The notes under the pieces: generated by a model
Seen by the model: only the letters and a program-made list of their open reading frames with translations
What the model was told of the DNA's origin: nothing
The model's database searches: none
Shown: in pieces, positions 8,367 through 64,000 of the stretch
How positions within the stretch are numbered: the first letter of the stretch is position 1
How the letters are laid out: the number at the start of each line of letters is the position of its first letter
Assembly: GCA_020350285.1 (NCBI GenBank)
Contig: CP070708.1
Span: 970,369 to 1,034,368, forward strand
DNA from: Anaerolineaceae bacterium
GTDB lineage: Bacteria > Chloroflexota > Anaerolineae > Anaerolineales > E44-bin32
Direction of reading: 5' to 3'
DNA length: 64,000 nt
Made by a program: the position numbers and the translations under genes

Positions 8367-9053
8367 GTGGATTCCAGTACTCGATGGCAGAGCATCACCT
8401 ATTGGATCTTGCAGATCCTCATTCCTGTGATACTCATTTTGTCGAGCGTGTGGATCATGCTCAATACGGCAAAGTGGTGGGTTCAGATCGAATATCGGCT
8501 CCCGGGATTTCCGGAAGATCGGTATGGTTTTACGCTGGAGGATAGACTCTATTGGTCGGCGATTGATATTGATTTTCTGCTCAATGACGAAGAACTCGAC
8601 TACTTTGATGATTTCCACTTAGAGGATGGATCACCAATGCATAACCAGCGAGAGCTAAGGCACATGGATGATGTTAAACGCCTCATCCACGTTATTTGGT
8701 ATGTGTTGGGTTTTGGATTGATTCTCGTTTTATTACTTGAGTTGTCCCTTGTGCTTTACGCTGATCCAAGCGTCGCGCTGGAAGCCCTTAGGAGAGGCGC
8801 TCGAAACACACTCATCCTGGTGGGGCTGCTCATCTTGGGCGTGATTGTGAGTTTTGGCATCTTGTTTGTTGGGTTTCACCGAATCTTCTTCGAGGGGGAC
8901 ACTTGGATCTTCCTTTTTTCCGATACATTTATCCGGCTTTACCCAGAACGATTCTGGCGCGACACATTTATATTCCTCGCTTTACTCACTGCGCTCGTGA
9001 CGGTTGTTGTTTATCTGCTTTCGAACATTCTCTTGAGAAGATTGCGACATTAA
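8367..9053 (+). CDS. TIGR01906/DUF1461-like integral membrane protein
   Basis: Four TM helices. The block FHRIFFEGDTWIFLFSDTFIRLYPERFWRD resembles the signature of that family as I remember it. GTG start. Confidence 0.6.
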   Translation: MDSSTRWQSITYWILQILIPVILILSSVWIMLNTAKWWVQIEYRLPGFPEDRYGFTLEDRLYWSAIDIDFLLNDEELDYFDDFHLEDGSPMHNQRELRHMDDVKRLIHVIWYVLGFGLILVLLLELSLVLYADPSVALEALRRGARNTLILVGLLILGVIVSFGILFVGFHRIFFEGDTWIFLFSDTFIRLYPERFWRDTFIFLALLTALVTVVVYLLSNILLRRLRH

Positions 9054-9103
9054 ACGCATGCCTTAAAGTTGATCACAGACCATAAGATGCTACACAACAT
9101 AAA

Positions 9104-9129
9104 TAGGAGCGCACAATCGTGCGCTCCTA
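9104..9129. repeat. GC-rich palindromic intergenic repeat (family A variant)
   Basis: TAGGAGCGCAC-AATC-GTGCGCTCCTA is a perfect 11-bp stem. It lies between convergent genes (ends at 9053 and 9168). It differs from the 17609 and 31933 copies by a paired G>A / C>T change. Confidence 0.8.
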
Positions 9130-9167
9130 AGTTATTTGTGAAATAAACACAATATCGTTACCGTTCT

Positions 9168-10379
9168 TCAAGCCCCATATTTCTCAAGTCGTTCGGCATG
9201 TGCCATTAGACGTGGCATTAGATCGACCGTAGGAAAGGTCCCATAACCACCCTGGGCACATGTGCGTTCACCAAACGTCATCTGGGTATCAGGTAGTCCT
9301 GTTGCAGGCGCCCACAATAAAGTCGGGATGGGATGCCAGGAGTGCCTTTTCAAACGCACTGGCGTGGAATGGTCACCGGTCACACAGAGAACATCGGGTT
9401 TCAGGTCTAACAGTGATGGAAGTGCATCGTCCACGGTTTCGATGACGTCGACCTTTCCCTTGTAATTTCCATCCTCACCCATGCTGTCGGTCTTCTTTAT
9501 ATGGATGAAGAAGAAATCAAATTCCTCCCAAATCTCTCCTGCTGTACGGAATTCATCCATGGGAGAGTCGCCCTGGAAGTCCTTTACCTCCATGCCAACG
9601 AGTCGTGAGACGCCCCGATACATTGGGTAGACTGCGATGCAAACCGCTTTGAGTCCATAGATCTCAGGGAACTGCGGTAAGGCAGGATCGGTAGAGAAGC
9701 CGCGAAGTGTCAGCCCATTTGCTCTGATCTCTCCCGCAAGTCGTGCTCGAGCCTCTTTGATCCAGCTTTCCACGAGATCAGCAGCTCTCTGTGATCCCTT
9801 CTCCCTCGCTTGAACTGGTAAGGGTTCAACTCCGGTCGCTTGTGGGTCGGTATCCTCAAGCTCAGGTTCTAGATCCTCACCACGCATGACGATTGCGAAC
9901 CGATACTCACGGACATGTTGTACATCGACCTCCACGCCTGGGATTTGGATCTCCGACAAACGTCCAACAAGAGGTATCGCCTCATCGGAGGGTATTCGTC
10001 CAGCGCGGCGATCAACGATCAGACCATTCGAATCGAGTGTGCAAAAATTACCTCGAGCAGCAATGTCCCCCTTGTTCACCTTCATTCCAATCCCCGTGGC
10101 TTCGAGAACCCCTCGGCCGACATCATAGTGAATCGGGTCATAACCGAACAACGCTAAGTGAGCCGGCCCTGAGCCAGGTGTTATACCCGGTCGAATTGGG
10201 ACCATTTGCCCCAGTGTACCTTCCGAAGCCAATCGATCTAGATTGGGTTTCCGCGCAGCTTCTAATTCCGTTGGCCCTCCCGGTTCAACGGGTAACCCAC
10301 CGAGACCATCCAGCGTTAGGAGGACGATTTTACTGTCATTTTTTAGGTGTAATTGACGCATCAAATCGAAATCTGCCAT
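9168..10379 (-). CDS. apgM: cofactor-independent phosphoglycerate mutase, archaeal-type (ApgM)
   Basis: 403 aa. Motifs seen: KIVLLTLDGLGG...RKPNLDRLASEGTLGQM...TPGSGPAHLALFGYDP and C-terminal VTGDHSTP, the alkaline-phosphatase-superfamily metal site. Confidence 0.85.
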   Translation of the reverse strand: MADFDLMRQLHLKNDSKIVLLTLDGLGGLPVEPGGPTELEAARKPNLDRLASEGTLGQMVPIRPGITPGSGPAHLALFGYDPIHYDVGRGVLEATGIGMKVNKGDIAARGNFCTLDSNGLIVDRRAGRIPSDEAIPLVGRLSEIQIPGVEVDVQHVREYRFAIVMRGEDLEPELEDTDPQATGVEPLPVQAREKGSQRAADLVESWIKEARARLAGEIRANGLTLRGFSTDPALPQFPEIYGLKAVCIAVYPMYRGVSRLVGMEVKDFQGDSPMDEFRTAGEIWEEFDFFFIHIKKTDSMGEDGNYKGKVDVIETVDDALPSLLDLKPDVLCVTGDHSTPVRLKRHSWHPIPTLLWAPATGLPDTQMTFGERTCAQGGYGTFPTVDLMPRLMAHAERLEKYGA

Positions 10380-10399
10380 TTACATACCCTTATTTGGGA

Positions 10400-10435
10400 T
10401 AAGAAAGCCCCCACACCCGAAAAGGCAAGGGGGCT
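10400..10435 (-). terminator. putative intrinsic terminator after the ABC ATPase gene
   Basis: On the minus strand the stem AGCCCCC...GGGGGCT is followed by TTCTTAT. It lies between the ATPase stop (10457) and the apgM start (10379). Confidence 0.4.
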
Positions 10436-10456
10436 CAGTTTCGCGCATGCAATTGG

Positions 10457-11560
10457 CTATTGAATTGTTTTCTGCTCCCCTTCAGGTTCGAAGAGGTGCA
10501 TGTTGTCCATATTGAAAACCAATTGCGCCTTGTCACCAACGCGGAGTTGTGAACGGGGATCGATACGCCCGACGGCGACATATTCACCCAACATCAGGTG
10601 CATGAAGATCTCGTTGCCCATCAACTCGGTTACATCAACCTGAGCCTCGACCGACGCAGCATGGATGCCGGGAGGAGCGAATAGTGGGTCGTGAATATCG
10701 TCAGGGCGAATTCCGAAAACCACCTGTTTACCGGCGTGTGGACCATACCTATCGACCTTGGTATCTGGTATTGGAACCTGGAACGCTCCAGCGTCAATCA
10801 TTAGTCCACCATCTGCCCGATCCAACCGAGCGTTGAAAAAATTCATCGCTGGTGAGCCGATAAACCCAGCCACGAAGACATTCGCTGGATTGTCGTATAG
10901 TTGTTGAGGGGTATCAACCTGATGAAGGATGCCATCCTTGATCACCGCGATACGGGAGGCCATAGTCATGGCCTCTACCTGATCGTGGGTGACATAGATG
11001 AAGGTGGTTTTCAGACGCTGGTGAAGTTTGCTGATCTCAGCCCTGGTTTGGACTCTCAACTTTGCGTCCAGGTTTGACAGGGGCTCATCGAAGAGGAAAA
11101 CCTTCGGTTCACGGACGATCGCTCGACCTACTGCGACACGCTGTCGCTGGCCACCAGATAATTGGCGTGGTTTACGATCGAGCAACGCTTCGATCCCGAG
11201 GATTTCCGCTGCCTCCTCCACTCGAGATTTAATCTCTTGCTTCGGTGTTTTACGCAACTTGAGGCCAAACGCCATGTTGTCGTAAACGGACATGTGTGGA
11301 TAGAGCGCGTAGGATTGGAACACCATCGCGATGTCTCGATCCTTCGGTGCGATGTCGTTCACGACACGATCTTCGATCAAGATTTTGCCTTCAGTGATCT
11401 CCTCCAGTCCTGCTAGTAAGCGTAAGGCCGTAGTCTTCCCACAACCTGACGGCCCTACCAGCACGAGAAATTCTTTGTCTTCAATGAAAACATCCATGTC
11501 GTTAACTGCAACGACGTCTCCGAAGCGTTTAGTTACATGTTCATACGTTACGCTGGCCAT
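10457..11560 (-). CDS. sugar ABC transporter ATP-binding protein (MalK/UgpC/MsmX type), orphan
   Basis: Walker A GPSGCGKTT, signature LSGGQRQR, Walker B VFLFDEPLSNLD, and a C-terminal MalK-like regulatory domain. GGAGG RBS. No permease or SBP gene is adjacent. Confidence 0.9.
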   Translation of the reverse strand: MASVTYEHVTKRFGDVVAVNDMDVFIEDKEFLVLVGPSGCGKTTALRLLAGLEEITEGKILIEDRVVNDIAPKDRDIAMVFQSYALYPHMSVYDNMAFGLKLRKTPKQEIKSRVEEAAEILGIEALLDRKPRQLSGGQRQRVAVGRAIVREPKVFLFDEPLSNLDAKLRVQTRAEISKLHQRLKTTFIYVTHDQVEAMTMASRIAVIKDGILHQVDTPQQLYDNPANVFVAGFIGSPAMNFFNARLDRADGGLMIDAGAFQVPIPDTKVDRYGPHAGKQVVFGIRPDDIHDPLFAPPGIHAASVEAQVDVTELMGNEIFMHLMLGEYVAVGRIDPRSQLRVGDKAQLVFNMDNMHLFEPEGEQKTIQ

Positions 11561-11820
11561 GGGCCGTCCTCCTTCTTTTGGGTATCGTACTTGTAATTAT
11601 ACACTCCCGAGGTTGAAGGTCAAAGAACGAACGCATTTTTTGTGAATGGTAAGCCTAAGTCACGGATCATGTCGGCCCCTTCCAGATGCTCAGGAGAGGA
11701 CCTTCGCCAAGCTCAGGGTGCTTTCTGTATGACATGCTCAACGCTAGAAGTGACAGGATTTGGTTACCGTGTTCCAGATTGACTCACCCCTTGCATGAAA
11801 ACACATCATCGGGTCATTAG

Positions 11821-32594: not shown

Positions 32595-32668
32595 TGGCTG
32601 GGGGTCGAGGATTCGAACCTCGGCTTACGGATCCAGAGTCCGCTGTCCTACCACTAGACGAACCCCCA
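32595..32668 (-). tRNA. tRNA-Gln (anticodon CUG), CCA encoded
   Basis: Hand-folded 74-nt cloverleaf: TGGGGGT TC GTCT-AGTGGTA-GGAC A GCGGA-CTCTGGA-TCCGT AAGC CGAGG-TTCGAAT-CCTCG ACCCCCA G CCA. The anticodon loop CU-CUG-GA gives CUG. Confidence 0.9.
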
Positions 32669-57897: not shown

Positions 57898-59784
57898 GTG
57901 AAGGGAAATGGGGTAAGATCCCAAACTCGCCGAAATCTCCCCAAACGGTATTGGCGCGTCTGGGTATTTCGTTTTTTCTTAGTGATAATCTTGATGAGTA
58001 TCGTTGCCTTAGGGTGGGCTGGGATACGAATGAGGACGCAACTTGATCCGACACCGCTTGATCCCACGCTACTAGCATTAGCAACTGCTCTTCAATTTAC
58101 CCCTACTGCAACCACCAGTCCTACTGCAGCGCCCCCATCAGCTACCTTCACAATCGCCCCCACTCGAAGTTCCTCACTTGGAACGCTGGTCTACGCCGCT
58201 CGAAATGACGGATACAGCCACATCTGGGCGTATACCCCAGGGGATTCTGCTCCCGTTCAGATCACAAATGGTGCATGGGATGACAGGGACCCAGCTGTCA
58301 GTCCAGATGGCAGATACATTGCGTTCTCTTCAAATCGGAAAGGAGCGTGGGACCTCTACCTTTTGGAGCTGAGAACAGGGGGATTGCGACGGTTAACGGA
58401 TACTTTAGGATTTGAAGGAAATCCTACTTGGTCTCACGATGGCCTTTGGTTGGCTTGTGAAGTTTACTTCGAAGGTGATTTTAATATCTGGATCATCCCC
58501 ATAAATGGTGGCCTTTCACCCATTCAGCTAACAAGCCACCCTGCGATAGATCTCTCCCCGTCTTGGGATCATTCAGGAGATGGCCGGCGTATCGCATTTG
58601 TCTCGTACCGGGATGGAAGTCCTGATATCTTTATTGCCGATTTGGATAACCCGGATAACCGTTTCTTTAACCTTACAAGAACCCCCGTAATCGCCGAGAA
58701 AAATCCAGCCTTCAGCCCAGACGGCTCCCGGGTCGCATACTCAATGTACTCGCATGGTCTTGATTTGATCCTCATCCAAGATTTAAATGACCTGTCTCAA
58801 TTGCCCGAGACCGTCAGCGAAGCGCGAACTGTCGCATGGTCGCCTGATGGGAGGTTCATTGCGACAGTATTATCCAACTCAATTTCGACCCACCTTCAGG
58901 TGAACGCTTTAGGTGACGATGGGACAAATTCGGTTGGATACCCTCCAATAAGCGGTATCCAGAGTCTTGATTGGACGGAGCATGGTCTTCCAGGTGAAGT
59001 GTATGCGCGAGGATCGAACAACAGTGTCTCCACGCCTCTTTTCGTCATCAATGCCATTCCTGAGGATTCAGGACGTTTGTCACTGGTCGAACTTACCGAT
59101 ATCGTTGCGCCCATCCCTGCCCTCTCGGATGCAGTCGATGAAGCGTTTAATGCGCTTCGCATAAGAACAATAGCAGAACTGGGATGGGATTTCCTTGGTA
59201 GCTTAGAAAATGCATTTGTTGGGATCAATGATCCGCTTCCTCCTGGCTATGCATATAATGATTGGCTTTATACAGGCAGAGCCTTCGCCTTTCAACAGAC
59301 CACAGTCCAGGCGGGTTGGGTGGAGCTTGTTCGTGAGGATTATGGCGGCAAGACGTATTGGCGTGTTTTTGTGCGTACCGTGGTTCAGGATGGTTCACAA
59401 GGAGAACCACTGCGCGCGTTACCGTGGGATTTCAGCACAAGGCATACCGGCGATCCGTTAGCGTATGACCAGGGGGGATCCCTGCGTGAAAGTATCCCGG
59501 AAGGGTATTATGTTGATTTCACGCAACTCGCAGGGGATTATGGTTTCGACCGCTTGCCTGCTTTAACCGATTGGCGAACCTTCTATCCGAGCGCAAGGTT
59601 TAATGAATTTGTACGGACCGATGGCCTGGATTGGACCTCAGCGATGCTTGAACTCTATCCAGCGTCAGCTATCGTGACCCCCACACCTTTCCAGACACCG
59701 ACCCCAACTCCGACACGCACACCACGACCGACAGCTACGCCGTGGTGGTGGCGATGGCGAACGCCTACGCCCAGCTCGCCATGA
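57898..59784 (+). CDS. membrane-anchored TolB-like beta-propeller (PD40 repeats) protein with unassigned C-terminal domain and Pro/Thr/Trp-rich tail
   Basis: TM helix VWVFRFFLVIILMSIVALGW. At least 5 PD40-type repeats (DPAVSPDGRYIAFSS, NPTWSHDG, SPSWDHSGDGRRIAFVS, NPAFSPDGSRVAYS, VAWSPDGRFIA). Tail TPTPTPTRTPRPTATPWWWRWRTPTPSSP. A TATAAT box is at 57869-57874. Confidence 0.8.
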   Translation: MKGNGVRSQTRRNLPKRYWRVWVFRFFLVIILMSIVALGWAGIRMRTQLDPTPLDPTLLALATALQFTPTATTSPTAAPPSATFTIAPTRSSSLGTLVYAARNDGYSHIWAYTPGDSAPVQITNGAWDDRDPAVSPDGRYIAFSSNRKGAWDLYLLELRTGGLRRLTDTLGFEGNPTWSHDGLWLACEVYFEGDFNIWIIPINGGLSPIQLTSHPAIDLSPSWDHSGDGRRIAFVSYRDGSPDIFIADLDNPDNRFFNLTRTPVIAEKNPAFSPDGSRVAYSMYSHGLDLILIQDLNDLSQLPETVSEARTVAWSPDGRFIATVLSNSISTHLQVNALGDDGTNSVGYPPISGIQSLDWTEHGLPGEVYARGSNNSVSTPLFVINAIPEDSGRLSLVELTDIVAPIPALSDAVDEAFNALRIRTIAELGWDFLGSLENAFVGINDPLPPGYAYNDWLYTGRAFAFQQTTVQAGWVELVREDYGGKTYWRVFVRTVVQDGSQGEPLRALPWDFSTRHTGDPLAYDQGGSLRESIPEGYYVDFTQLAGDYGFDRLPALTDWRTFYPSARFNEFVRTDGLDWTSAMLELYPASAIVTPTPFQTPTPTPTRTPRPTATPWWWRWRTPTPSSP

Positions 59785-60872
59785 AAAGCGTCAATATCTA
59801 CACATCAGCCAGGATATTCATCAGTGGTCTTCTCCTTGCTGCCTGTGGACTAACGGGGGATGAGGCGCCACAGAATGGGATGCTCCCCATCGAAAGTCCG
59901 ACACCGGAGCTGACGAATGTTAGCAGTGAAGAAATCACCCTGATGGAAAGTGGGGCTTCCCCAAACATGGTCGTAACGCCTGTTTCAGTGGAACTCCCTT
60001 CACCCATCCCTATTCCCACCTCAGATTGGAGGCCACCTCCTTATCCCGCGCCATGGGCGATCCGTCCTCAGGATCATTTCTATTTTGATCGACCCATTCC
60101 CTCAGGAGAGGTGAACTGGCCAAACCCGAGATACCGATATGGAAGCACTTTATTTGGAGAGGAGAATATCCATACTGGAGTTGACTTGGGCGCTGACCGC
60201 GGCACTTTGGTTCTAGCAGCTGGACCAGGCGAAGTGGTATGGACTGGTTATGGCCTTTACCGAGGCATTTACGATGAAACCGACCCCTATGGTCTTGCTG
60301 TAGCCATAGAGCATGATTATGGCTACCAGGGTATTCAACTGCATACCGTCTATGCTCATATGCAATCCATTCGAGTATGGGATGGACAGCGTGTTCAGTC
60401 AGGAGAGATTCTCGGAACTGTGGGCGATACAGGTCATGCCTCTGGACCTCATTTGCATTTTGAGATCAGGTTAGGGGATAACCGATATTGGAGCACCCGC
60501 AATCCCGAGCTTTGGATCGCGCCGCCCATTGGCTGGGGTGTACTAGCAGGGCGAGTGGAGGATACCTTTGGTAATTTGCTCAAGGAGTACCTTGTGCAAA
60601 TCTACTCGATTAAGTCCGGTGAACGCTGGGATGTATGGACCTATGCAGAAGGTACCATCCATTCGGATGATTTTTATCGGGAAAATTTTGTGATCAGTGA
60701 TTTACCTTCAGGTCCATACGACATCCGGGTCGATTTCGCTGGTAGGTCCTTCTCAGCTCAACTTTACCTTTATCCAGGCCAAACGAATTTCATCGTCTTC
60801 CGTGGGCGAAATGGGTTTAATGTGGAACCCACGCCTACACCAGTAGATCTCACCAATCCTCCAGATTTATAA
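59781..60872 (+). CDS. M23-family (LytM-type) peptidoglycan metalloendopeptidase lipoprotein
   Basis: ATGA overlap with the upstream stop. Lipobox LLLAAC. HTGVDLGA (HxxxD) and GHASGPHLHFE (HxH). The C-terminus is a beta-sandwich resembling a carboxypeptidase-regulatory-like domain. Confidence 0.9.
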   Translation: MKSVNIYTSARIFISGLLLAACGLTGDEAPQNGMLPIESPTPELTNVSSEEITLMESGASPNMVVTPVSVELPSPIPIPTSDWRPPPYPAPWAIRPQDHFYFDRPIPSGEVNWPNPRYRYGSTLFGEENIHTGVDLGADRGTLVLAAGPGEVVWTGYGLYRGIYDETDPYGLAVAIEHDYGYQGIQLHTVYAHMQSIRVWDGQRVQSGEILGTVGDTGHASGPHLHFEIRLGDNRYWSTRNPELWIAPPIGWGVLAGRVEDTFGNLLKEYLVQIYSIKSGERWDVWTYAEGTIHSDDFYRENFVISDLPSGPYDIRVDFAGRSFSAQLYLYPGQTNFIVFRGRNGFNVEPTPTPVDLTNPPDL

Positions 60873-60966: not shown

Positions 60967-60995
60967 TTGACCTTTTTCCAGAATAATCATTAAAT
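60967..60995 (+). promoter_or_regulatory. sigma-70-type promoter of the ProRS-like gene, leaderless geometry
   Basis: TTGACC-N17-TTAAAT ends 6 nt before ATG 61002. No SD. Confidence 0.45.
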
Positions 60996-61001
60996 ATCAT
61001 C

Positions 61002-62558
61002 ATGAAACGAAGCCAACTCCTCGGTCGTACTCTTCGTGAAGCTCCACTGGTGCCTGACCCATGGACAGAGCTTGCGCTCCGCGCAGCTTTCATTCGTTTG
61101 GTGGATCATCAGGTAATAACCCTTCCATTAGGGGAAAGAGCCGTCGCTCGTTTGATGGATATGTTGGGATCCATCCTGTCACCTGCTCAAAAGGTACGAA
61201 TGGGACCGGGTTTGGTTGATGAAGGATGGACAGAATTCCTTCAGGGTGAGATCCAATCATACCGCCAATTACCGATAATGTTATTCACGCAACGAATGGT
61301 GAAATCGATCGAGCCTGCACAAGGTTTAGCTCGACCACCTTGGCGAAATGCTCTGCAGTGGTTGAGGATGTGTATCTCTGGAGAGGACCTTCAAAACTAT
61401 CAAGACCAGTGGATGAAGAACGTAGAAGCCTTGTGGCATGAGCTTGGATTAGCCCCTAGTTCGACGGAGTGGAGGCCAAGTGAGTTTGGATGGTCCTATG
61501 TGCACGAAAAAGGACCGGACGAGATGCTTTCCTGCTTATCTTGCAGCTATATCGGAAGTTCAGTGGCAGCGCAATTCAGGCGGCAACCAAACGTGGATGA
61601 GGATCTCTTAGAGATGACTCCCGTTTCCACACCTGGAGCCGATACAATCCAGGCTCTGGCTGAAATGCTCTCGATACCAGAGGAAAAAACCCTCAAAGCA
61701 GTCTTTCTGTCGGGAGATGATGAGCAATTGGTATTAATCGTCATCCGCGGGGATCTGGATGTCAGCATGCCCAAGATTTCTGCTTTGACGGGTAGTCATG
61801 CTCTTCGTCCAGCCAGTGAGGAAGGCATCCGTTCCGGACGTGCGGAACCCGGCTTTGCTAGCCCAATTGGATTAGATGTGATGCCATCCTTGGATGAGAG
61901 AGGGATTTTGGTTATCGGTGATCTTTCCATCGAGCATGGGGTAAATTTCGTTGCGGGGGCGAACAAGCCAGGTTTTCACATAAGCGGTGTTAATTACCCG
62001 CGTGATTTTAGCGTCACATTGATTGCGGATGTCGCGCTTGCTAAGGAGGGTGATAGTTGCCTTGCGTGTGGTGAAGCGCTTGCAGCGACTCGAGGGATAT
62101 ACCTGGGGGGCTGGAAAAAACTACCTGCTTCTATCCAGTATACAAGTGAAGAGGGGCTTGATCGATCCCATGCTGGACTAGGCACGCTTTCCATAGAGCC
62201 CATACTTTCAGCGCTACTTGCTGAGCACAAGGACGAACAGGGCATGATATGGCCAGTCAGGATCGCACCCTTTGATGTTTATCTTGTCGATCTGAATTGT
62301 CCCCAGGAAGCTGAACAAGTTGTCCAAGATTTGGAGTCCGTTGATTTGAGTGTGCTCCACGATGATCGCAAGGCCTCTCCCGGGGTGAAATTTACCGACG
62401 CTGATTTGATCGGTCTTCCGGTAAGGTTGACAGTTAGCAGGCGAAGCCTGGATCAGGGGGGGGTGGAATGTACGTTAAGAGGGAAAAACACGCTACAGAT
62501 CATCCCTTTTGAAGGTATAGGGGAGGCAATTCTAGCTGTAATTACCTCAGTTATGTAA
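61002..62558 (+). CDS. prolyl-tRNA synthetase paralog (bacterial type, with INS editing and anticodon-binding domains) lacking canonical class-II motifs 1-3
   Basis: It is collinear with ProRS: MKRSQLLGRTLREAP...LRAAFIR, SYRQLP, INS blocks IVIRGDLDVS / PGFASPIGL / FVAGANKPGFHISGVNYPRDF, and anticodon-domain blocks GMIWPVRIAPFDVYLV / DDRKASPGVKFTDADLIGLP. However, motif 2 is VKSIEPAQGLARPPW and motif 3 is AGLGTLSIEP. Confidence 0.8.
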   Translation: MKRSQLLGRTLREAPLVPDPWTELALRAAFIRLVDHQVITLPLGERAVARLMDMLGSILSPAQKVRMGPGLVDEGWTEFLQGEIQSYRQLPIMLFTQRMVKSIEPAQGLARPPWRNALQWLRMCISGEDLQNYQDQWMKNVEALWHELGLAPSSTEWRPSEFGWSYVHEKGPDEMLSCLSCSYIGSSVAAQFRRQPNVDEDLLEMTPVSTPGADTIQALAEMLSIPEEKTLKAVFLSGDDEQLVLIVIRGDLDVSMPKISALTGSHALRPASEEGIRSGRAEPGFASPIGLDVMPSLDERGILVIGDLSIEHGVNFVAGANKPGFHISGVNYPRDFSVTLIADVALAKEGDSCLACGEALAATRGIYLGGWKKLPASIQYTSEEGLDRSHAGLGTLSIEPILSALLAEHKDEQGMIWPVRIAPFDVYLVDLNCPQEAEQVVQDLESVDLSVLHDDRKASPGVKFTDADLIGLPVRLTVSRRSLDQGGVECTLRGKNTLQIIPFEGIGEAILAVITSVM

Positions 62559-62624
62559 AGTAATCTTGACATCCAACTTTCGCCTGTGCTATCCTTCCAT
62601 CCACGGCTAGTTAGTGGAGGAGGG

Positions 62625-63449
62625 ATGGTTCGCGAACGGGTTGGTGATAACGTCTATGTATTTACTAGTGAGTTGTATGCACAGGTAAATGCAGGAGCTA
62701 TCGTAGGTCCGGATTGGTCTGTTTTAATCGACACCTTGGCATATCCTGAGGAATCTCAAGATATCCGTGATTTCCTTGAAGATCGATTAAATAGCCCTGT
62801 TCGATATGTGATTAACACCCATCATCACGCGGATCACACGCTGGGAACCTGTTTTTTTCCGGACGCGATTGTCATAAGTCATTCCCTCTGTCGTCAGTTG
62901 CTGGAAACCAAAGGTCGTGAAGCCTTAAGCGAGGCTCAACGTCTGAATCGTGAATTGTGGGATGTTCATATCGTCTCACCCGACATCATCTACAGCGATG
63001 GTGGGATCAGTCTGCGGGTGGGGAAGCGAACATTGAAGCTGGTTTTTCTTCCTGGGCACAGTGAAGATGGCATCGGTGTCCTTTTGGTTGAGGATCGGGT
63101 CTTGTTCTCGGGCGACATCATGATGCCTTTACCCTATGTGGTTGATGGGGATTTCGACGTGATGATTGAAAATCTCAAGCGGATCCCGCAAATGAACCTC
63201 GAGAATCTTGTACAAGGACACGGAGAGGTCATTTTGAGGGGCGAGGTAGGGTCCGCAGTGAAGGACAATCTGGATTATCTTGCTACAATCCGTCGCCATG
63301 TAAAAAAAGCCACTCGTCGACGGGATCCAGAGGCTTATCTCGAAAAAATCGATGTGGAGTCATGTGACAAAAGCCGTATTCTTCTGAATGGCTTAGCTGA
63401 AGAATTACATAAGCGCAATATGTATGCGCTCTTGGATCGTATGCGGTAA
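62625..63449 (+). CDS. MBL-fold metallo-hydrolase
   Basis: INTHHHADHTLG (HxHxDH), then LPGHSEDG and QGHGE. ATG follows a GGAGGAGGG RBS. Confidence 0.85.
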   Translation: MVRERVGDNVYVFTSELYAQVNAGAIVGPDWSVLIDTLAYPEESQDIRDFLEDRLNSPVRYVINTHHHADHTLGTCFFPDAIVISHSLCRQLLETKGREALSEAQRLNRELWDVHIVSPDIIYSDGGISLRVGKRTLKLVFLPGHSEDGIGVLLVEDRVLFSGDIMMPLPYVVDGDFDVMIENLKRIPQMNLENLVQGHGEVILRGEVGSAVKDNLDYLATIRRHVKKATRRRDPEAYLEKIDVESCDKSRILLNGLAEELHKRNMYALLDRMR

Positions 63450-63889: not shown

Positions 63890-64000
63890 ATTAACGGGAA
63901 ACAATGTAAACAAAGTACGGGCAATGAATTCATTGTCCTGATTGTGTAAAGCGTTTGATCCGAACCATGAAGTGTGATCGGGAGTGAAGGGTGTGACAGA

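What the first reader, a model, noticed from the sequence alone, without database searches (positions are those of the whole stretch)
61002..62558. Full-length bacterial-type ProRS paralog with eroded catalytic motifs but intact-looking editing and anticodon-binding parts (candidate aaRS pseudoenzyme)
The 518-aa ORF is clearly collinear with bacterial ProRS. Shared blocks include the N-terminal MKRSQLLGRTLREAP..LRAAFIR, SYRQLP, the INS/YbaK-like insertion with TLKAVFL, IVIRGDLDVS, PGFASPIGL and FVAGANKPGFHISGVNYPRDF, and the C-terminal GMIWPVRIAPFDVYLV...DDRKASPGVKFTDADLIGLP.

Compared with the E. coli ProRS sequence as I remember it (not computed), four differences stand out:
- About 35-40 residues around motif 1 (the ...GPTHEE... 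region) are absent between aa ~60 and ~80.
- The motif-2 block FRDE-RPRFG-R-REF is replaced by VKSIEPAQGLARPPWRNALQW (aa 100-120), with no ATP-binding Arg.
- GHIFQLG is replaced by GGWKKL.
- Motif 3 GCYGIGVTR is replaced by AGLGTLSIEP (aa 391-400), although the flanking ILSALLAEHKDEQGMIWP is conserved.

Loss concentrated on catalytic residues, with the fold, tRNA-binding and editing parts retained, is the classic pseudoenzyme pattern. My hypothesis is that it no longer activates proline. It may instead act as a tRNA(Pro)-directed trans-editing factor (Ala-tRNAPro deacylase) or regulator, complementing a separate INS-less ProRS elsewhere in the genome. The gene has its own strong promoter and no T-box.
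Basis: partly seen in the sequence, partly recalled or inferred. Interest (0 to 1): 0.65.

Follow-up and report, generated by a model that had tools for sequence, protein, structure and literature searches.

The report
Dead prolyl-tRNA synthetase kept for proofreading
This gene is a conserved copy of prolyl-tRNA synthetase that has lost the parts needed to charge tRNA but keeps intact proofreading and tRNA-anticodon-binding parts. It most likely works as a stand-alone corrector of mischarged proline tRNA, a form the reviews I read do not describe for this enzyme.

Summary
ORF 61002..62558 (+, 518 aa) is collinear with bacterial INS-containing ProRS. It lacks the motif-1/THEE segment and both motif-2 and motif-3 arginines. 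It has no tRNA-synt_2b Pfam hit and scores far below the ProRS equivalog cut-offs.

It is not a decaying pseudogene.
- About 60 protein clusters of ~519 aa (81% down to ~39% identity) from Anaerolineae metagenome bins share the same losses.
- They sit in the same gene neighbourhood.
- dN/dS is 0.18-0.26 in every domain.
- AlphaFold gives a confident ProRS-like fold (pLDDT 92.5; TM 0.77 to 2J3L).

All known editing-site residues (E. coli T257, I263, L266, K279, D350, H369 and the PG..P loop) are invariant in 45/45 members. INS and the anticodon-binding domain are now more conserved than the catalytic remnant, the reverse of canonical enzymes.

Syntenic loci in related contigs lack the gene entirely, so the working ProRS is probably encoded elsewhere. 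I could not identify it.

Best reading: a full-length trans-editing factor specific for tRNAPro, analogous to crenarchaeal ThrRS-ed. Other Anaerolineae ProRS genes show independent degeneration in place.

The parts
61002..62558 (+). ProRS-like gene (518 aa), the 519-aa class of degenerate ProRS. Identical to GenBank UCF61995.1, annotated as 'hypothetical protein JSV37_04720', Anaerolineaceae bacterium, on a 3,405,363-bp contig.
61002..61496 (+). N-terminal remnant of the class II catalytic domain (aa 1-165). It keeps the N-terminal GRTLREAP and SYRQLP blocks but lacks motif 1/THEE (~38-aa deletion after aa ~70).
   Evidence: Folded with high confidence. dN/dS 0.14-0.31.
61299..61361 (+). Motif-2 replacement VKSIEPAQGLARPPWRNALQW (aa 100-120). 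Ec R140 is deleted, E142 becomes S and R144 becomes E. The family has its own consensus here, GLARPxW...LQW.
61533..61544 (+). First Cys pair (C178, C181) of a four-cysteine motif flanking the INS insertion. Invariant in paralogs and in canonical type A enzymes. Presumed zinc knuckle (inference).
61629..62036 (+). INS (YbaK-like) editing domain, aa 210-345. Contains T210, I216, L219, K232 (nt 61695-61697), P283/G284/P288, D307 and H326 (nt 61977-61979). These correspond to E. coli T257, I263, L266, K279, the PG..P loop, D350 and H369.
   Evidence: Pfam PF04073, 71.8 bits. All sites invariant in 45/45 family members.
62058..62069 (+). Second Cys pair (C353, C356) of the four-cysteine motif.
62037..62246 (+). 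C-terminal remnant of the catalytic domain (aa 346-415). Contains GGWKKL in place of GHxFxLG, and the motif-3 replacement AGLGTLSIEP (aa 391-400, nt 62172-62201) with Pro in place of the motif-3 Arg.
62247..62555 (+). Class IIa anticodon-binding domain (aa 416-518) with the conserved DDRxxSPGVKFTDADLIGxPxRxTVSxRSLxxGGVE block.
   Evidence: Pfam PF03129
60967..60995 (+). Promoter-like TTGACC-17 nt-TTAAAT, ending 6 nt before the ATG, which would give a leaderless or near-leaderless transcript. Shared only with L008. Weak evidence.
   Evidence: Read from the sequence, alignment. Not called by the scan.
57898..60872 (+). Conserved upstream neighbours: PD40/Tricorn-like beta-propeller protein (57898..59784) and M23 peptidase (59742..60872).
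62586..63449 (+). Conserved downstream neighbour: MBL-fold (Lactamase_B) hydrolase. In syntenic loci it is followed by an RNase H-like gene, a 236-aa AlaX-like editing protein, IleRS, LspA, RluD and TyrRS.

Best explanation
The gene encodes an aminoacylation-dead descendant of the INS-containing bacterial ProRS, from the 'type A' lineage common in Anaerolineae. It has been kept as a free-standing, full-length editing factor.

Proposed mechanism:
1. The anticodon-binding domain docks tRNAPro through its anticodon.
2. The eroded catalytic core no longer binds ATP or proline. It serves as a rigid spacer between the anticodon-binding domain and the INS domain.
3. The intact INS active site hydrolyses mischarged tRNAPro, most likely Ala-tRNAPro.

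Shown here: loss of the synthetic-site residues; strict conservation of the editing-site residues; purifying selection on all domains; a confident ProRS-like fold; conservation across a family in fixed synteny; and absence of the gene from some syntenic loci.

Inferred: deacylase activity, its amino-acid specificity, tRNAPro specificity, and the existence and type of the working ProRS in the same genome.
For: Loss of aminoacylation machinery:
- No PF00587 hit, and sub-threshold ProRS equivalog scores.
- THEE deleted in 45/45 members. Ec R140 deleted in 44/45. Ec R450 replaced by P, A, S or L.

Editing site intact:
- Ec T257, I263, L266, K279, D350 and H369 are invariant in 45/45. In the PG..P loop, G and the second P are invariant and the first P is kept in 44/45.

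Selection:
- dN/dS is 0.18-0.26 overall and below 0.4 in each domain against the two closest orthologues. Neighbouring genes give 0.07-0.15.
- The conservation order is reversed. In the family, catalytic remnant 0.39, INS 0.53, ABD 0.52. In canonical type A, catalytic 0.78, INS 0.69, ABD 0.64.

Fold:
- AF2 pLDDT 92.5, pTM 0.90.
- Full-length match to E. faecalis ProRS 2J3L, TM 0.77.

Family and synteny:
- About 60 clusters of ~519 aa without PF00587.
- Identical gene order at 44% identity and in GTDB species representatives.

Dispensability:
- Syntenic loci L096, L097 and L101 (M23 then MBL ~160-190 bp apart) and L098 (PD40 then MBL, no M23 match detected) have no ProRS-like gene. ProRS activity in this clade must therefore come from another locus.

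Mechanistic precedent:
- E. coli INS has no intrinsic tRNA recognition and depends on anticodon binding by the ABD ~70 Å away (PMC3973320). This explains why the ABD and the spacer core are both retained.
Against: - No activity data exist.
- The working ProRS of this genome was not found. No hit or 58 lies on the 3,405,363-bp contig. The search was indirect: the tools could not scan that contig, and each search lists only its best 120 hits.
- The canonical ProRS prevalent in Anaerolineaceae bins has its own INS, so a separate editor would be redundant unless it acts as an extra sieve or has a shifted specificity.
- The gene evolves roughly 1.2-3 times faster than its neighbours, depending on the neighbour and genome pair, and has been lost from some relatives. 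Its contribution to fitness is therefore modest.
- The catalytic remnant carries its own conserved motifs (GLARPxW, LQW, GGW, LEPIL), which a pure spacer role does not fully explain.
Confidence: 0.55

Rival explanations
1. A non-catalytic tRNAPro-binding or ProRS-binding protein. It could be a regulator, a tRNA sequestering or hand-over factor, or a heterodimer partner of the working ProRS. It would use the ABD and the ProRS-like surface, with the INS site conserved for binding rather than hydrolysis.
For: - The ABD and overall ProRS fold are retained.
- The catalytic remnant has family-specific conserved motifs.
- Precedents among synthetase paralogs, such as LeuRS-I and ThrRS-L, are summarised in PMC9437257.
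Against: - Every residue known to matter for INS catalysis and pocket shape is invariant in 45/45 members. This is more than binding alone would require.
- Motif 1, which forms the class II dimer interface (established knowledge), is deleted, making heterodimerisation less likely.
- No regulatory partner gene is consistently adjacent beyond general synteny.
Confidence: 0.15
2. A deacylase whose specificity has shifted away from Ala-tRNAPro. It could act on another small or non-protein amino acid on tRNAPro, as seen among INS-superfamily members such as YbaK, ProXp-x and ProXp-ST. This would remove redundancy with the INS of the resident ProRS.
For: - The resident ProRS in this family probably has its own INS.
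- There are class-specific changes around the site. Ec L266 is Leu in all 45 paralogs but Val in all 17 canonical type A enzymes. The conserved GDxxxNExK becomes GDLxxSxxK.
- INS-superfamily members show varied specificities (PMC11295145).
Against: The pocket-defining residues I263, L266 and H369 match E. coli INS, which is Ala-specific (the role of these residues is from the literature, recalled). No direct evidence of a different substrate.
Confidence: 0.2
3. A functionless relic: an old proS copy decaying after being replaced by another ProRS, still open by chance.
For: - Faster evolution than its neighbours.
- Absent from some syntenic relatives.
- Other Anaerolineae ProRS genes are seen at several stages of erosion at native proS loci.
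Against: - Intact ~519-aa ORFs across about 60 clusters down to ~39% identity.
- dN/dS well below 1 in all domains.
- Invariant editing residues.
- A confidently folded model.
Confidence: 0.06
4. Still a working ProRS with an unorthodox active site, and the only proS of the genome.
For: No second ProRS gene could be identified for this genome with the tools available.
Against: - Both ATP-binding arginines, the THEE block and the GHxFxLG block are missing.
- Close relatives with the same gene order lack the gene altogether.
- NCBI annotates it as a hypothetical protein.
Confidence: 0.02

Closest known systems
Bacterial INS-containing ProRS (E. faecalis 2J3L, E. coli ProRS; TIGR00409 / NF006625)
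   Same: Same domain order and fold (TM 0.77). Homologous INS with an identical editing site. Homologous anticodon-binding domain. Clear descent from the Anaerolineae 'type A' ProRS at 37-38% identity.
   Different: No motif 1/THEE and no motif-2 or motif-3 arginines. No PF00587 hit, and below the equivalog cut-offs. The catalytic part is now the least conserved part.
Crenarchaeal ThrRS-ed (the editing-only ThrRS paralog that works beside ThrRS-cat)
   Same: A synthetase paralog that keeps an editing domain plus an anticodon-binding domain and acts in trans on the cognate tRNA. The domain make-up is as shown in PMC11295145. The degenerate catalytic core of ThrRS-ed is from my recollection of the primary literature.
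   Different: A different synthetase family and a different editing fold. ThrRS-ed complements an editing-less ThrRS-cat, whereas here the partner enzyme is unknown and may have its own INS.
ProXp-ala / YbaK / other single-domain INS-superfamily trans-editing proteins
   Same: Homologous hydrolytic domain, with a probable role in clearing mischarged tRNAPro.
   Different: Those are single-domain proteins (PMC11295145). ProXp-ala reads the acceptor stem and YbaK has no tRNA specificity (PMC3973320). This protein keeps the ABD and core, so it would be expected to read the anticodon as cis-INS does.
AlaX (AlaXp) free-standing AlaRS editing proteins
   Same: A trans-editor that coexists with a synthetase having its own editing domain, which is a precedent for redundancy. 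A 236-aa AlaX-like gene lies about 1.5-2 kb downstream (~1.4-1.9 kb measured) in all but one of the syntenic loci that extend far enough.
   Different: Unrelated fold, and no retained catalytic-core remnant.
ProRSx (Streptomyces ProRS paralog)
   Same: The only ProRS paralog listed in the 2022 review of synthetase duplications (PMC9437257).
   Different: ProRSx is catalytically active and charges a tRNAPro with an Ala anticodon. The protein here cannot activate proline.
HisZ (HisRS-like regulatory subunit of ATP-PRTase)
   Same: A class IIa synthetase paralog without aminoacylation activity.
   Different: HisZ keeps the amino-acid pocket and lacks the ABD, and sits with biosynthetic genes (established knowledge). 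Here the amino-acid pocket is destroyed, the ABD is retained, and no proline-biosynthesis genes are nearby.

Membership tests
Bacterial ProRS (proline--tRNA ligase, TIGR00409 / NF006625) | Score at or above the curated equivalog cut-off | tested here: not met
   NF006625 scores 215.4 against 558. TIGR00409 scores 151.9 against 306.7. The alignment covers only aa 166-507.
Bacterial ProRS (proline--tRNA ligase, TIGR00409 / NF006625) | Class II core domain detectable (Pfam tRNA-synt_2b, PF00587) | tested here: not met
   No hit at E<=1. Precomputed Pfam domains lack PF00587 for P0001-P0059.
Bacterial ProRS (proline--tRNA ligase, TIGR00409 / NF006625) | Motif 1 and THEE block (Ec T109-E112) | tested here: not met
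   Deleted in 45/45 family members.
Bacterial ProRS (proline--tRNA ligase, TIGR00409 / NF006625) | Motif 2 fRDExRPR with the ATP-binding Arg (Ec R140) and E142/R144 | tested here: not met
   R140 deleted in 44/45. E142 becomes S, F or L. R144 becomes E, D or N.
Bacterial ProRS (proline--tRNA ligase, TIGR00409 / NF006625) | Motif 3 GxGxGxxR Arg (Ec R450) | tested here: not met
   P400 in the window protein. P, A, S or L across the family.
Bacterial ProRS (proline--tRNA ligase, TIGR00409 / NF006625) | Overall three-part fold (core, INS, ABD) | tested here: met
   AF2 pLDDT 92.5. Foldseek 2J3L E=1.4e-50, TMq 0.77.
INS / YbaK editing-domain superfamily (PF04073) | Domain above the Pfam gathering score | tested here: met
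   71.8 bits against 25.5, aa 210-331.
INS / YbaK editing-domain superfamily (PF04073) | Catalytic Lys (Ec K279) and pocket residues T257, I263, L266, D350, H369 and the PG..P loop | tested here: met
   K232, T210, I216, L219, D307, H326 and P283/G284/P288. The six named residues, G284 and P288 are invariant in 45/45, and P283 is kept in 44/45. The E. coli sequence was recalled from memory. Its length and the residue identities at the published positions checked out.
INS / YbaK editing-domain superfamily (PF04073) | Hydrolysis of mischarged tRNAPro | not testable with these tools
   Needs a deacylation assay.
Single-domain trans-editing proteins (ProXp-ala, YbaK) | Single-domain architecture of about 150-170 aa | tested here: not met
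   518 aa with core remnant, INS and ABD. [quoted passage not shown]
Editing-only synthetase paralog (ThrRS-ed type arrangement) | Editing domain and ABD retained, synthetic site lost | tested here: met
Editing-only synthetase paralog (ThrRS-ed type arrangement) | Coexists with a separate working synthetase that lacks the editing domain | tested here: inconclusive
   No partner was found on the 3,405,363-bp contig. Absence of the gene from syntenic relatives implies a ProRS elsewhere. The prevalent Anaerolineaceae ProRS has INS.
Pseudogene | Disrupted frame, or neutral evolution (dN/dS about 1) | tested here: not met
   Intact ORF. dN/dS 0.18-0.26. About 60 full-length orthologue clusters.
HisZ-like regulatory paralog | Amino-acid pocket retained and linkage to the cognate biosynthetic genes | tested here: not met
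   Pocket-forming blocks are deleted or replaced. Neighbours are PD40, M23, MBL, AlaX-like and IleRS, with no pro genes.

The most novel reading that the evidence does not exclude
Anaerolineae have repeatedly and independently turned a redundant full-length ProRS into an anticodon-guided trans-editing enzyme, a 'ProRS-ed'. The series runs from point-mutated forms (P0180, L018) to deeply eroded forms (540-aa and 519-aa classes).

In the 519-aa class the remodelled core, with its conserved GLARPxW / LQW / GGW / LEPIL motifs, may have gained a new ligand-binding or catalytic role. The protein would then do something beyond Ala-tRNAPro hydrolysis, for example a new substrate specificity or sensing of tRNAPro charging.
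Probability: 0.12. Interest if true: 0.85.

Novelty: new variant of a known kind. Interest (0 to 1): 0.62.

Why it matters
All described trans-acting relatives of the ProRS editing domain are small single-domain proteins. They either read the acceptor stem or have no tRNA specificity.

A full-length ProRS that has lost synthesis but kept editing and anticodon binding would be the ProRS counterpart of archaeal ThrRS-ed. It would be a natural separation-of-function mutant. It could show how the INS domain is steered by anticodon binding 70 Å away, which the E. coli work left as an open question (PMC3973320).

The graded series of eroded ProRS genes at native proS loci in Anaerolineae also gives a rare stepwise view of how an essential enzyme becomes a pseudoenzyme after being made redundant.

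In practice, these proteins are annotated either as 'prolyl-tRNA synthetase' (JGI) or 'hypothetical protein' (NCBI). Neither label describes what the evidence here suggests they are.

Tried and rejected
Attempts to find the working ProRS of the same genome:
- tblastn of canonical ProRS against the window found only this gene.
- Protein searches with a type A ProRS and a type B ProRS were screened for a hit on the 3,405,363-bp contig. None appeared among the 120 listed each time.
- P0001 is not in the contig index, so genome walking was impossible.
Its pattern GVKF[TAV]DADL is common to many bacterial ProRS, so no co-occurrence conclusion can be drawn.
- No locus fetched holds a second ProRS gene.
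- No paralog and canonical cluster share a contig length (by eye).

Other dead ends and rejected ideas:
- The afdb50 fold library was unavailable.
- My first regex classification of motifs was too strict for diverse ProRS. It was replaced by alignment-column inspection.
- I considered whether the 519-aa gene occupies an ancestral proS locus. No canonical ProRS was found between M23 and MBL in any locus, only presence or absence of the paralog.
- A HisZ-like regulator was rejected because the pocket is lost and there are no pro genes nearby.
- A T-box or other leader RNA was rejected.
- Literature searches for a described ProRS pseudoenzyme found none. One search failed on syntax.
Full report
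**1. What is at the coordinates**

ORF 61002..62558 (+) encodes 518 aa starting MKRSQLLGRTLREAP. Pfam detects only an aminoacyl-tRNA editing domain (aa 210-331, 71.8 bits) and a class IIa anticodon-binding domain (aa 432-510). The class II core model PF00587 gives no hit even at E<=1.

NCBI's ProRS equivalog models score far below their cut-offs: 215 against 558, and 152 against 306.7. They align only from residue 166 on. The best solved relative is E. faecalis ProRS 2J3L (E=8e-45). Its alignment through the motif-2 and motif-3 regions shows almost no identities.

**2.

I aligned the protein with canonical Anaerolineae ProRS found in the homology search and with E. coli ProRS. The E. coli sequence was recalled from memory. 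It has the right length, and the right residues sit at the published positions R140, T257, I263, L266, K279, D350, H369, C443 and R450.

All four differences are real:
- About 38 residues containing motif 1 and THEE are missing.
- Motif 2 is replaced. Ec R140 falls in a gap, E142 becomes S and R144 becomes E.
- GHxFxLG is replaced by GGWKKL with a 6-residue deletion.
- The motif-3 arginine is a proline, P400.

No T-box or other Rfam element lies upstream. The consensus scan finds no sigma-70-type promoter in the 129-bp upstream spacer. By eye there is a TTGACC-17-TTAAAT element ending 6 nt before the ATG. It is shared only with the closest relative. More distant orthologues have a GGAGG-type ribosome-binding site and abut the upstream gene.

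**3. A conserved family, not a decaying gene**

The protein is identical to GenBank UCF61995.1. That record is annotated 'hypothetical protein JSV37_04720' from an Anaerolineaceae bacterium bin, on a 3,405,363-bp contig.

About 60 clusters of 504-522 aa proteins, 81% down to ~39% identical, share the Pfam pattern INS + ABD without PF00587. In a 45-member alignment the same deletions and replacements recur. The family also has its own conserved strings in the former core: SYRQLP, GLARPxW, LQW, LGGW and GLGTLxLEPILAAL.

Gene order around the gene is conserved at 44% identity, in NCBI bins, JGI contigs and GTDB representatives: PD40 propeller, M23 peptidase, ProRS-like, MBL-fold hydrolase, RNase H-like, 236-aa AlaX-like protein, IleRS, LspA, RluD, aminotransferase, TyrRS.

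Pairwise Nei-Gojobori dN/dS against the two closest orthologues is 0.26 and 0.18 overall, and between 0.14 and 0.38 for every domain, including both core remnants. The three neighbouring genes give 0.07-0.15 for the same genome pairs. The gene is therefore constrained, but less tightly than its neighbours.

**4. Where the constraint lies**

Mean pairwise identity by domain:

| Group | Core, N part | INS | Core, C part | ABD |
|---|---|---|---|---|
| 519-aa family | 0.39 | 0.53 | 0.39 | 0.52 |
| Canonical type A ProRS (17) | 0.78 | 0.69 | 0.78 | 0.64 |

The order is reversed between the two groups.

The residues that define the E. coli INS editing site are all invariant in 45/45 members: T257, I263, L266, K279, D350 and H369; in the PG..P loop, G and the second P are invariant and the first P is kept in 44/45. 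A four-cysteine motif flanking the INS insertion (C178, C181, C353, C356) is also invariant, in paralogs and in canonical type A enzymes alike.

AlphaFold2 on the family alignment gives pLDDT 92.5 and pTM 0.90, with no disordered segment. Foldseek aligns the whole chain to E. faecalis ProRS at TM 0.77. The core remnant is thus a folded scaffold, not a linker.

**5. Is there another ProRS?**

I could not find the genome's working ProRS.
- The window has no second homologue.
- The genome is not in the contig index.
- Neither a type A query nor a type B query listed a protein from the 3.4-Mb contig among its best 120.
- The GTDB scan was cut at 600 rows, which allows no co-occurrence inference.

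Indirect evidence is nevertheless informative. A metagenome scan anchored on the downstream MBL gene found contigs with the same gene order in which M23 (or, in L098, PD40) is followed directly by MBL with no ProRS-like gene (L096, L097, L098, L101; spacers of ~160-190 bp after M23, ~260 bp after the PD40 match in L098). Contigs at similar divergence keep the gene (L094, L095, L099). The gene is therefore dispensable in this clade. That is incompatible with its being the sole ProRS.

The canonical ProRS that dominates bins labelled Anaerolineaceae is a second subtype, which I call 'type B' ([23 protein letters not shown]). It has its own INS domain. The 519-aa class descends from the other subtype, 'type A' (320 against 225-257 bits).

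**6. A wider phenomenon**

Other Anaerolineae ProRS-like genes are eroded to different degrees.
- P0180 and L018 keep full length but have substitutions at catalytic residues (THEE becomes AHGA in P0180 only; the first motif-2 Arg becomes His in both; the motif-3 Arg becomes Gln in P0180, while L018 keeps that Arg but has its motif-3 glycines and GHCFKLG block degraded).
- P0068 and L046 are eroded without deletions.
- A ~540-aa class (P0059, P0081, P0113, L019 and others) has lost motif 1 and all motif signatures.
- All keep the editing Lys and His, and the ABD.

Three of these sit where related genomes have a canonical proS:

| Degenerate form | Its context | Canonical counterpart |
|---|---|---|
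| P0059 | Maf, gene, thioredoxin, TrpRS | P0164, with neighbours 65-88% identical |
| P0081 | gene, (thioredoxin), GAF/PAS kinase, CpXC | P0092 |
| P0180 | next to an inositol-phosphatase gene | P0091 |

These are cases of degeneration in place. The cultured Levilinea saccharolytica KIBI-1 carries a strongly degenerate, type-B-like copy (L030). It lies at a different locus from the canonical type B gene of a Levilinea bin.

A neighbour-joining tree places the 519-aa class as one long-branched clade and the 540-aa forms as a grade near type A. Long-branch effects make the exact number of origins uncertain.

**7. Mechanism proposed**

Published work on E. coli ProRS shows that INS has no intrinsic tRNAPro recognition. 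It depends on anticodon (G35/G36) binding by the ABD, about 70 Å away. By contrast, ProXp-ala reads the acceptor stem and YbaK reads nothing (PMC3973320).

A ProRS-derived editor that is to stay specific for tRNAPro therefore needs three things: the ABD, the INS, and something rigid between them. That is exactly the set of things conserved here, while ATP- and proline-binding residues are lost.

I therefore propose an anticodon-guided trans-editing deacylase, most likely for Ala-tRNAPro. Redundancy with an INS-bearing resident ProRS has precedent in AlaX, which coexists with editing-proficient AlaRS (established knowledge). An AlaX-like gene lies just downstream in this very neighbourhood.

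Confidence:
- About 0.9 that the protein cannot aminoacylate.
- About 0.9 that it is a selected, functional gene.
- About 0.55 for the specific deacylase mechanism.

**8. Comparison with what is known**

A 2022 review of synthetase duplications lists only the catalytically active ProRSx as a ProRS paralog (PMC9437257). A 2024 review of editing factors states that all INS-superfamily members other than cis-INS are single-domain proteins. It depicts ThrRS-ed as an editing domain plus ABD (PMC11295145).

My literature searches found no description of a full-length, synthesis-dead ProRS. The library is incomplete, so this is absence of evidence only.

I class the finding as a new variant of a known kind: trans-editing factors and synthetase-like pseudoenzymes. 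The closest functional analogue is crenarchaeal ThrRS-ed.

**9. Limits**

- There is no biochemical evidence.
- The partner enzyme is unidentified.
- The dN/dS values are pairwise approximations.
- Model coordinates could not be inspected.

Noticed in passing
L096 3411-5521; L097 110-1996; L098 1836-4443; L101 1-1232 (compare L094, L095, L099): Presence/absence polymorphism. Contigs with the same gene order (PD40, M23, MBL, RNase H-like, AlaX-like, IleRS) either carry the ProRS-like gene between M23 and MBL or lack it: in L096, L097 and L101 only ~160-190 bp separate M23 from MBL, and in L098 no M23 match was detected and MBL follows the PD40 match after ~260 bp.
   Followed up: partly
L006 10001-11629 (P0059) vs L088-L093 (P0164); L175 41-1669 (P0081) vs L005 211-1956 (P0092); L174 1005-2750 (P0180) vs L007 10001-11719 (P0091): Other degenerate ProRS-like genes (540-aa class, and near-full-length forms with point substitutions at catalytic residues) occupy loci where related genomes have a canonical proS. 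This suggests repeated inactivation in place within Anaerolineae.
   Followed up: partly
L030 about 9992-11608 (Levilinea saccharolytica KIBI-1, NZ_LGCM01000027.1): A cultured Anaerolineae species carries a strongly degenerate ProRS-like gene that is slightly closer to type B. It lies directly downstream of a gene whose product looks like a proline iminopeptidase (ORF 8851..9984; called by eye from the N-terminal sequence, not scanned). This organism could be used for experiments.
   Followed up: partly
L012-L087, L078 10001-11743: Anaerolineae bins carry two distinct canonical INS-containing ProRS subtypes. Type A has [24 protein letters not shown] and GHCFKLG. Type B has [24 protein letters not shown] and GNIFKLG. 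Whether single genomes hold both was not resolved.
   Followed up: partly
L001 13430-17523 and 21230-21560; same order in L003, L008-L011, L082: A cluster of translation-quality genes lies downstream of the ProRS-like gene in syntenic loci: a 236-aa AlaX-like protein (tRNA-synt_2c + tRNA_SAD), IleRS, LspA, RluD and TyrRS. In the window itself this region lies beyond base 64000.
   Followed up: no
window 61533-61544 and 62058-62069: Four invariant cysteines (CxxC ... CxxC) bracket the INS insertion, in the paralogs and in canonical type A ProRS alike. The corresponding E. coli regions have no cysteines. Probably a zinc knuckle stapling the base of the INS domain.
   Followed up: no
window 59742-59784: The listed ORFs for the PD40-propeller protein (57898..59784) and the M23 peptidase (59742..60872) overlap by 43 nt, and both are listed from GTG starts. 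The true M23 start may lie further downstream.
   Followed up: no
window 60967-61004; L008 about 9965-10003: The TTGACC-17-TTAAAT element ends 6 nt before the ATG and there is no Shine-Dalgarno sequence, which would imply a leaderless or near-leaderless mRNA in this lineage. More distant orthologues have GGAGG before the start codon.
   Followed up: partly
window 32595-32668 (-): A single tRNA-Gln (CTG) gene is the only Rfam or ARAGORN RNA hit in the 64-kb window. There is no tRNAPro nearby.
   Followed up: no
annotations: Public annotation is inconsistent. JGI names these proteins 'prolyl-tRNA synthetase' (one as YbaK/EbsC deacylase), while NCBI names them 'hypothetical protein'.
   Followed up: no
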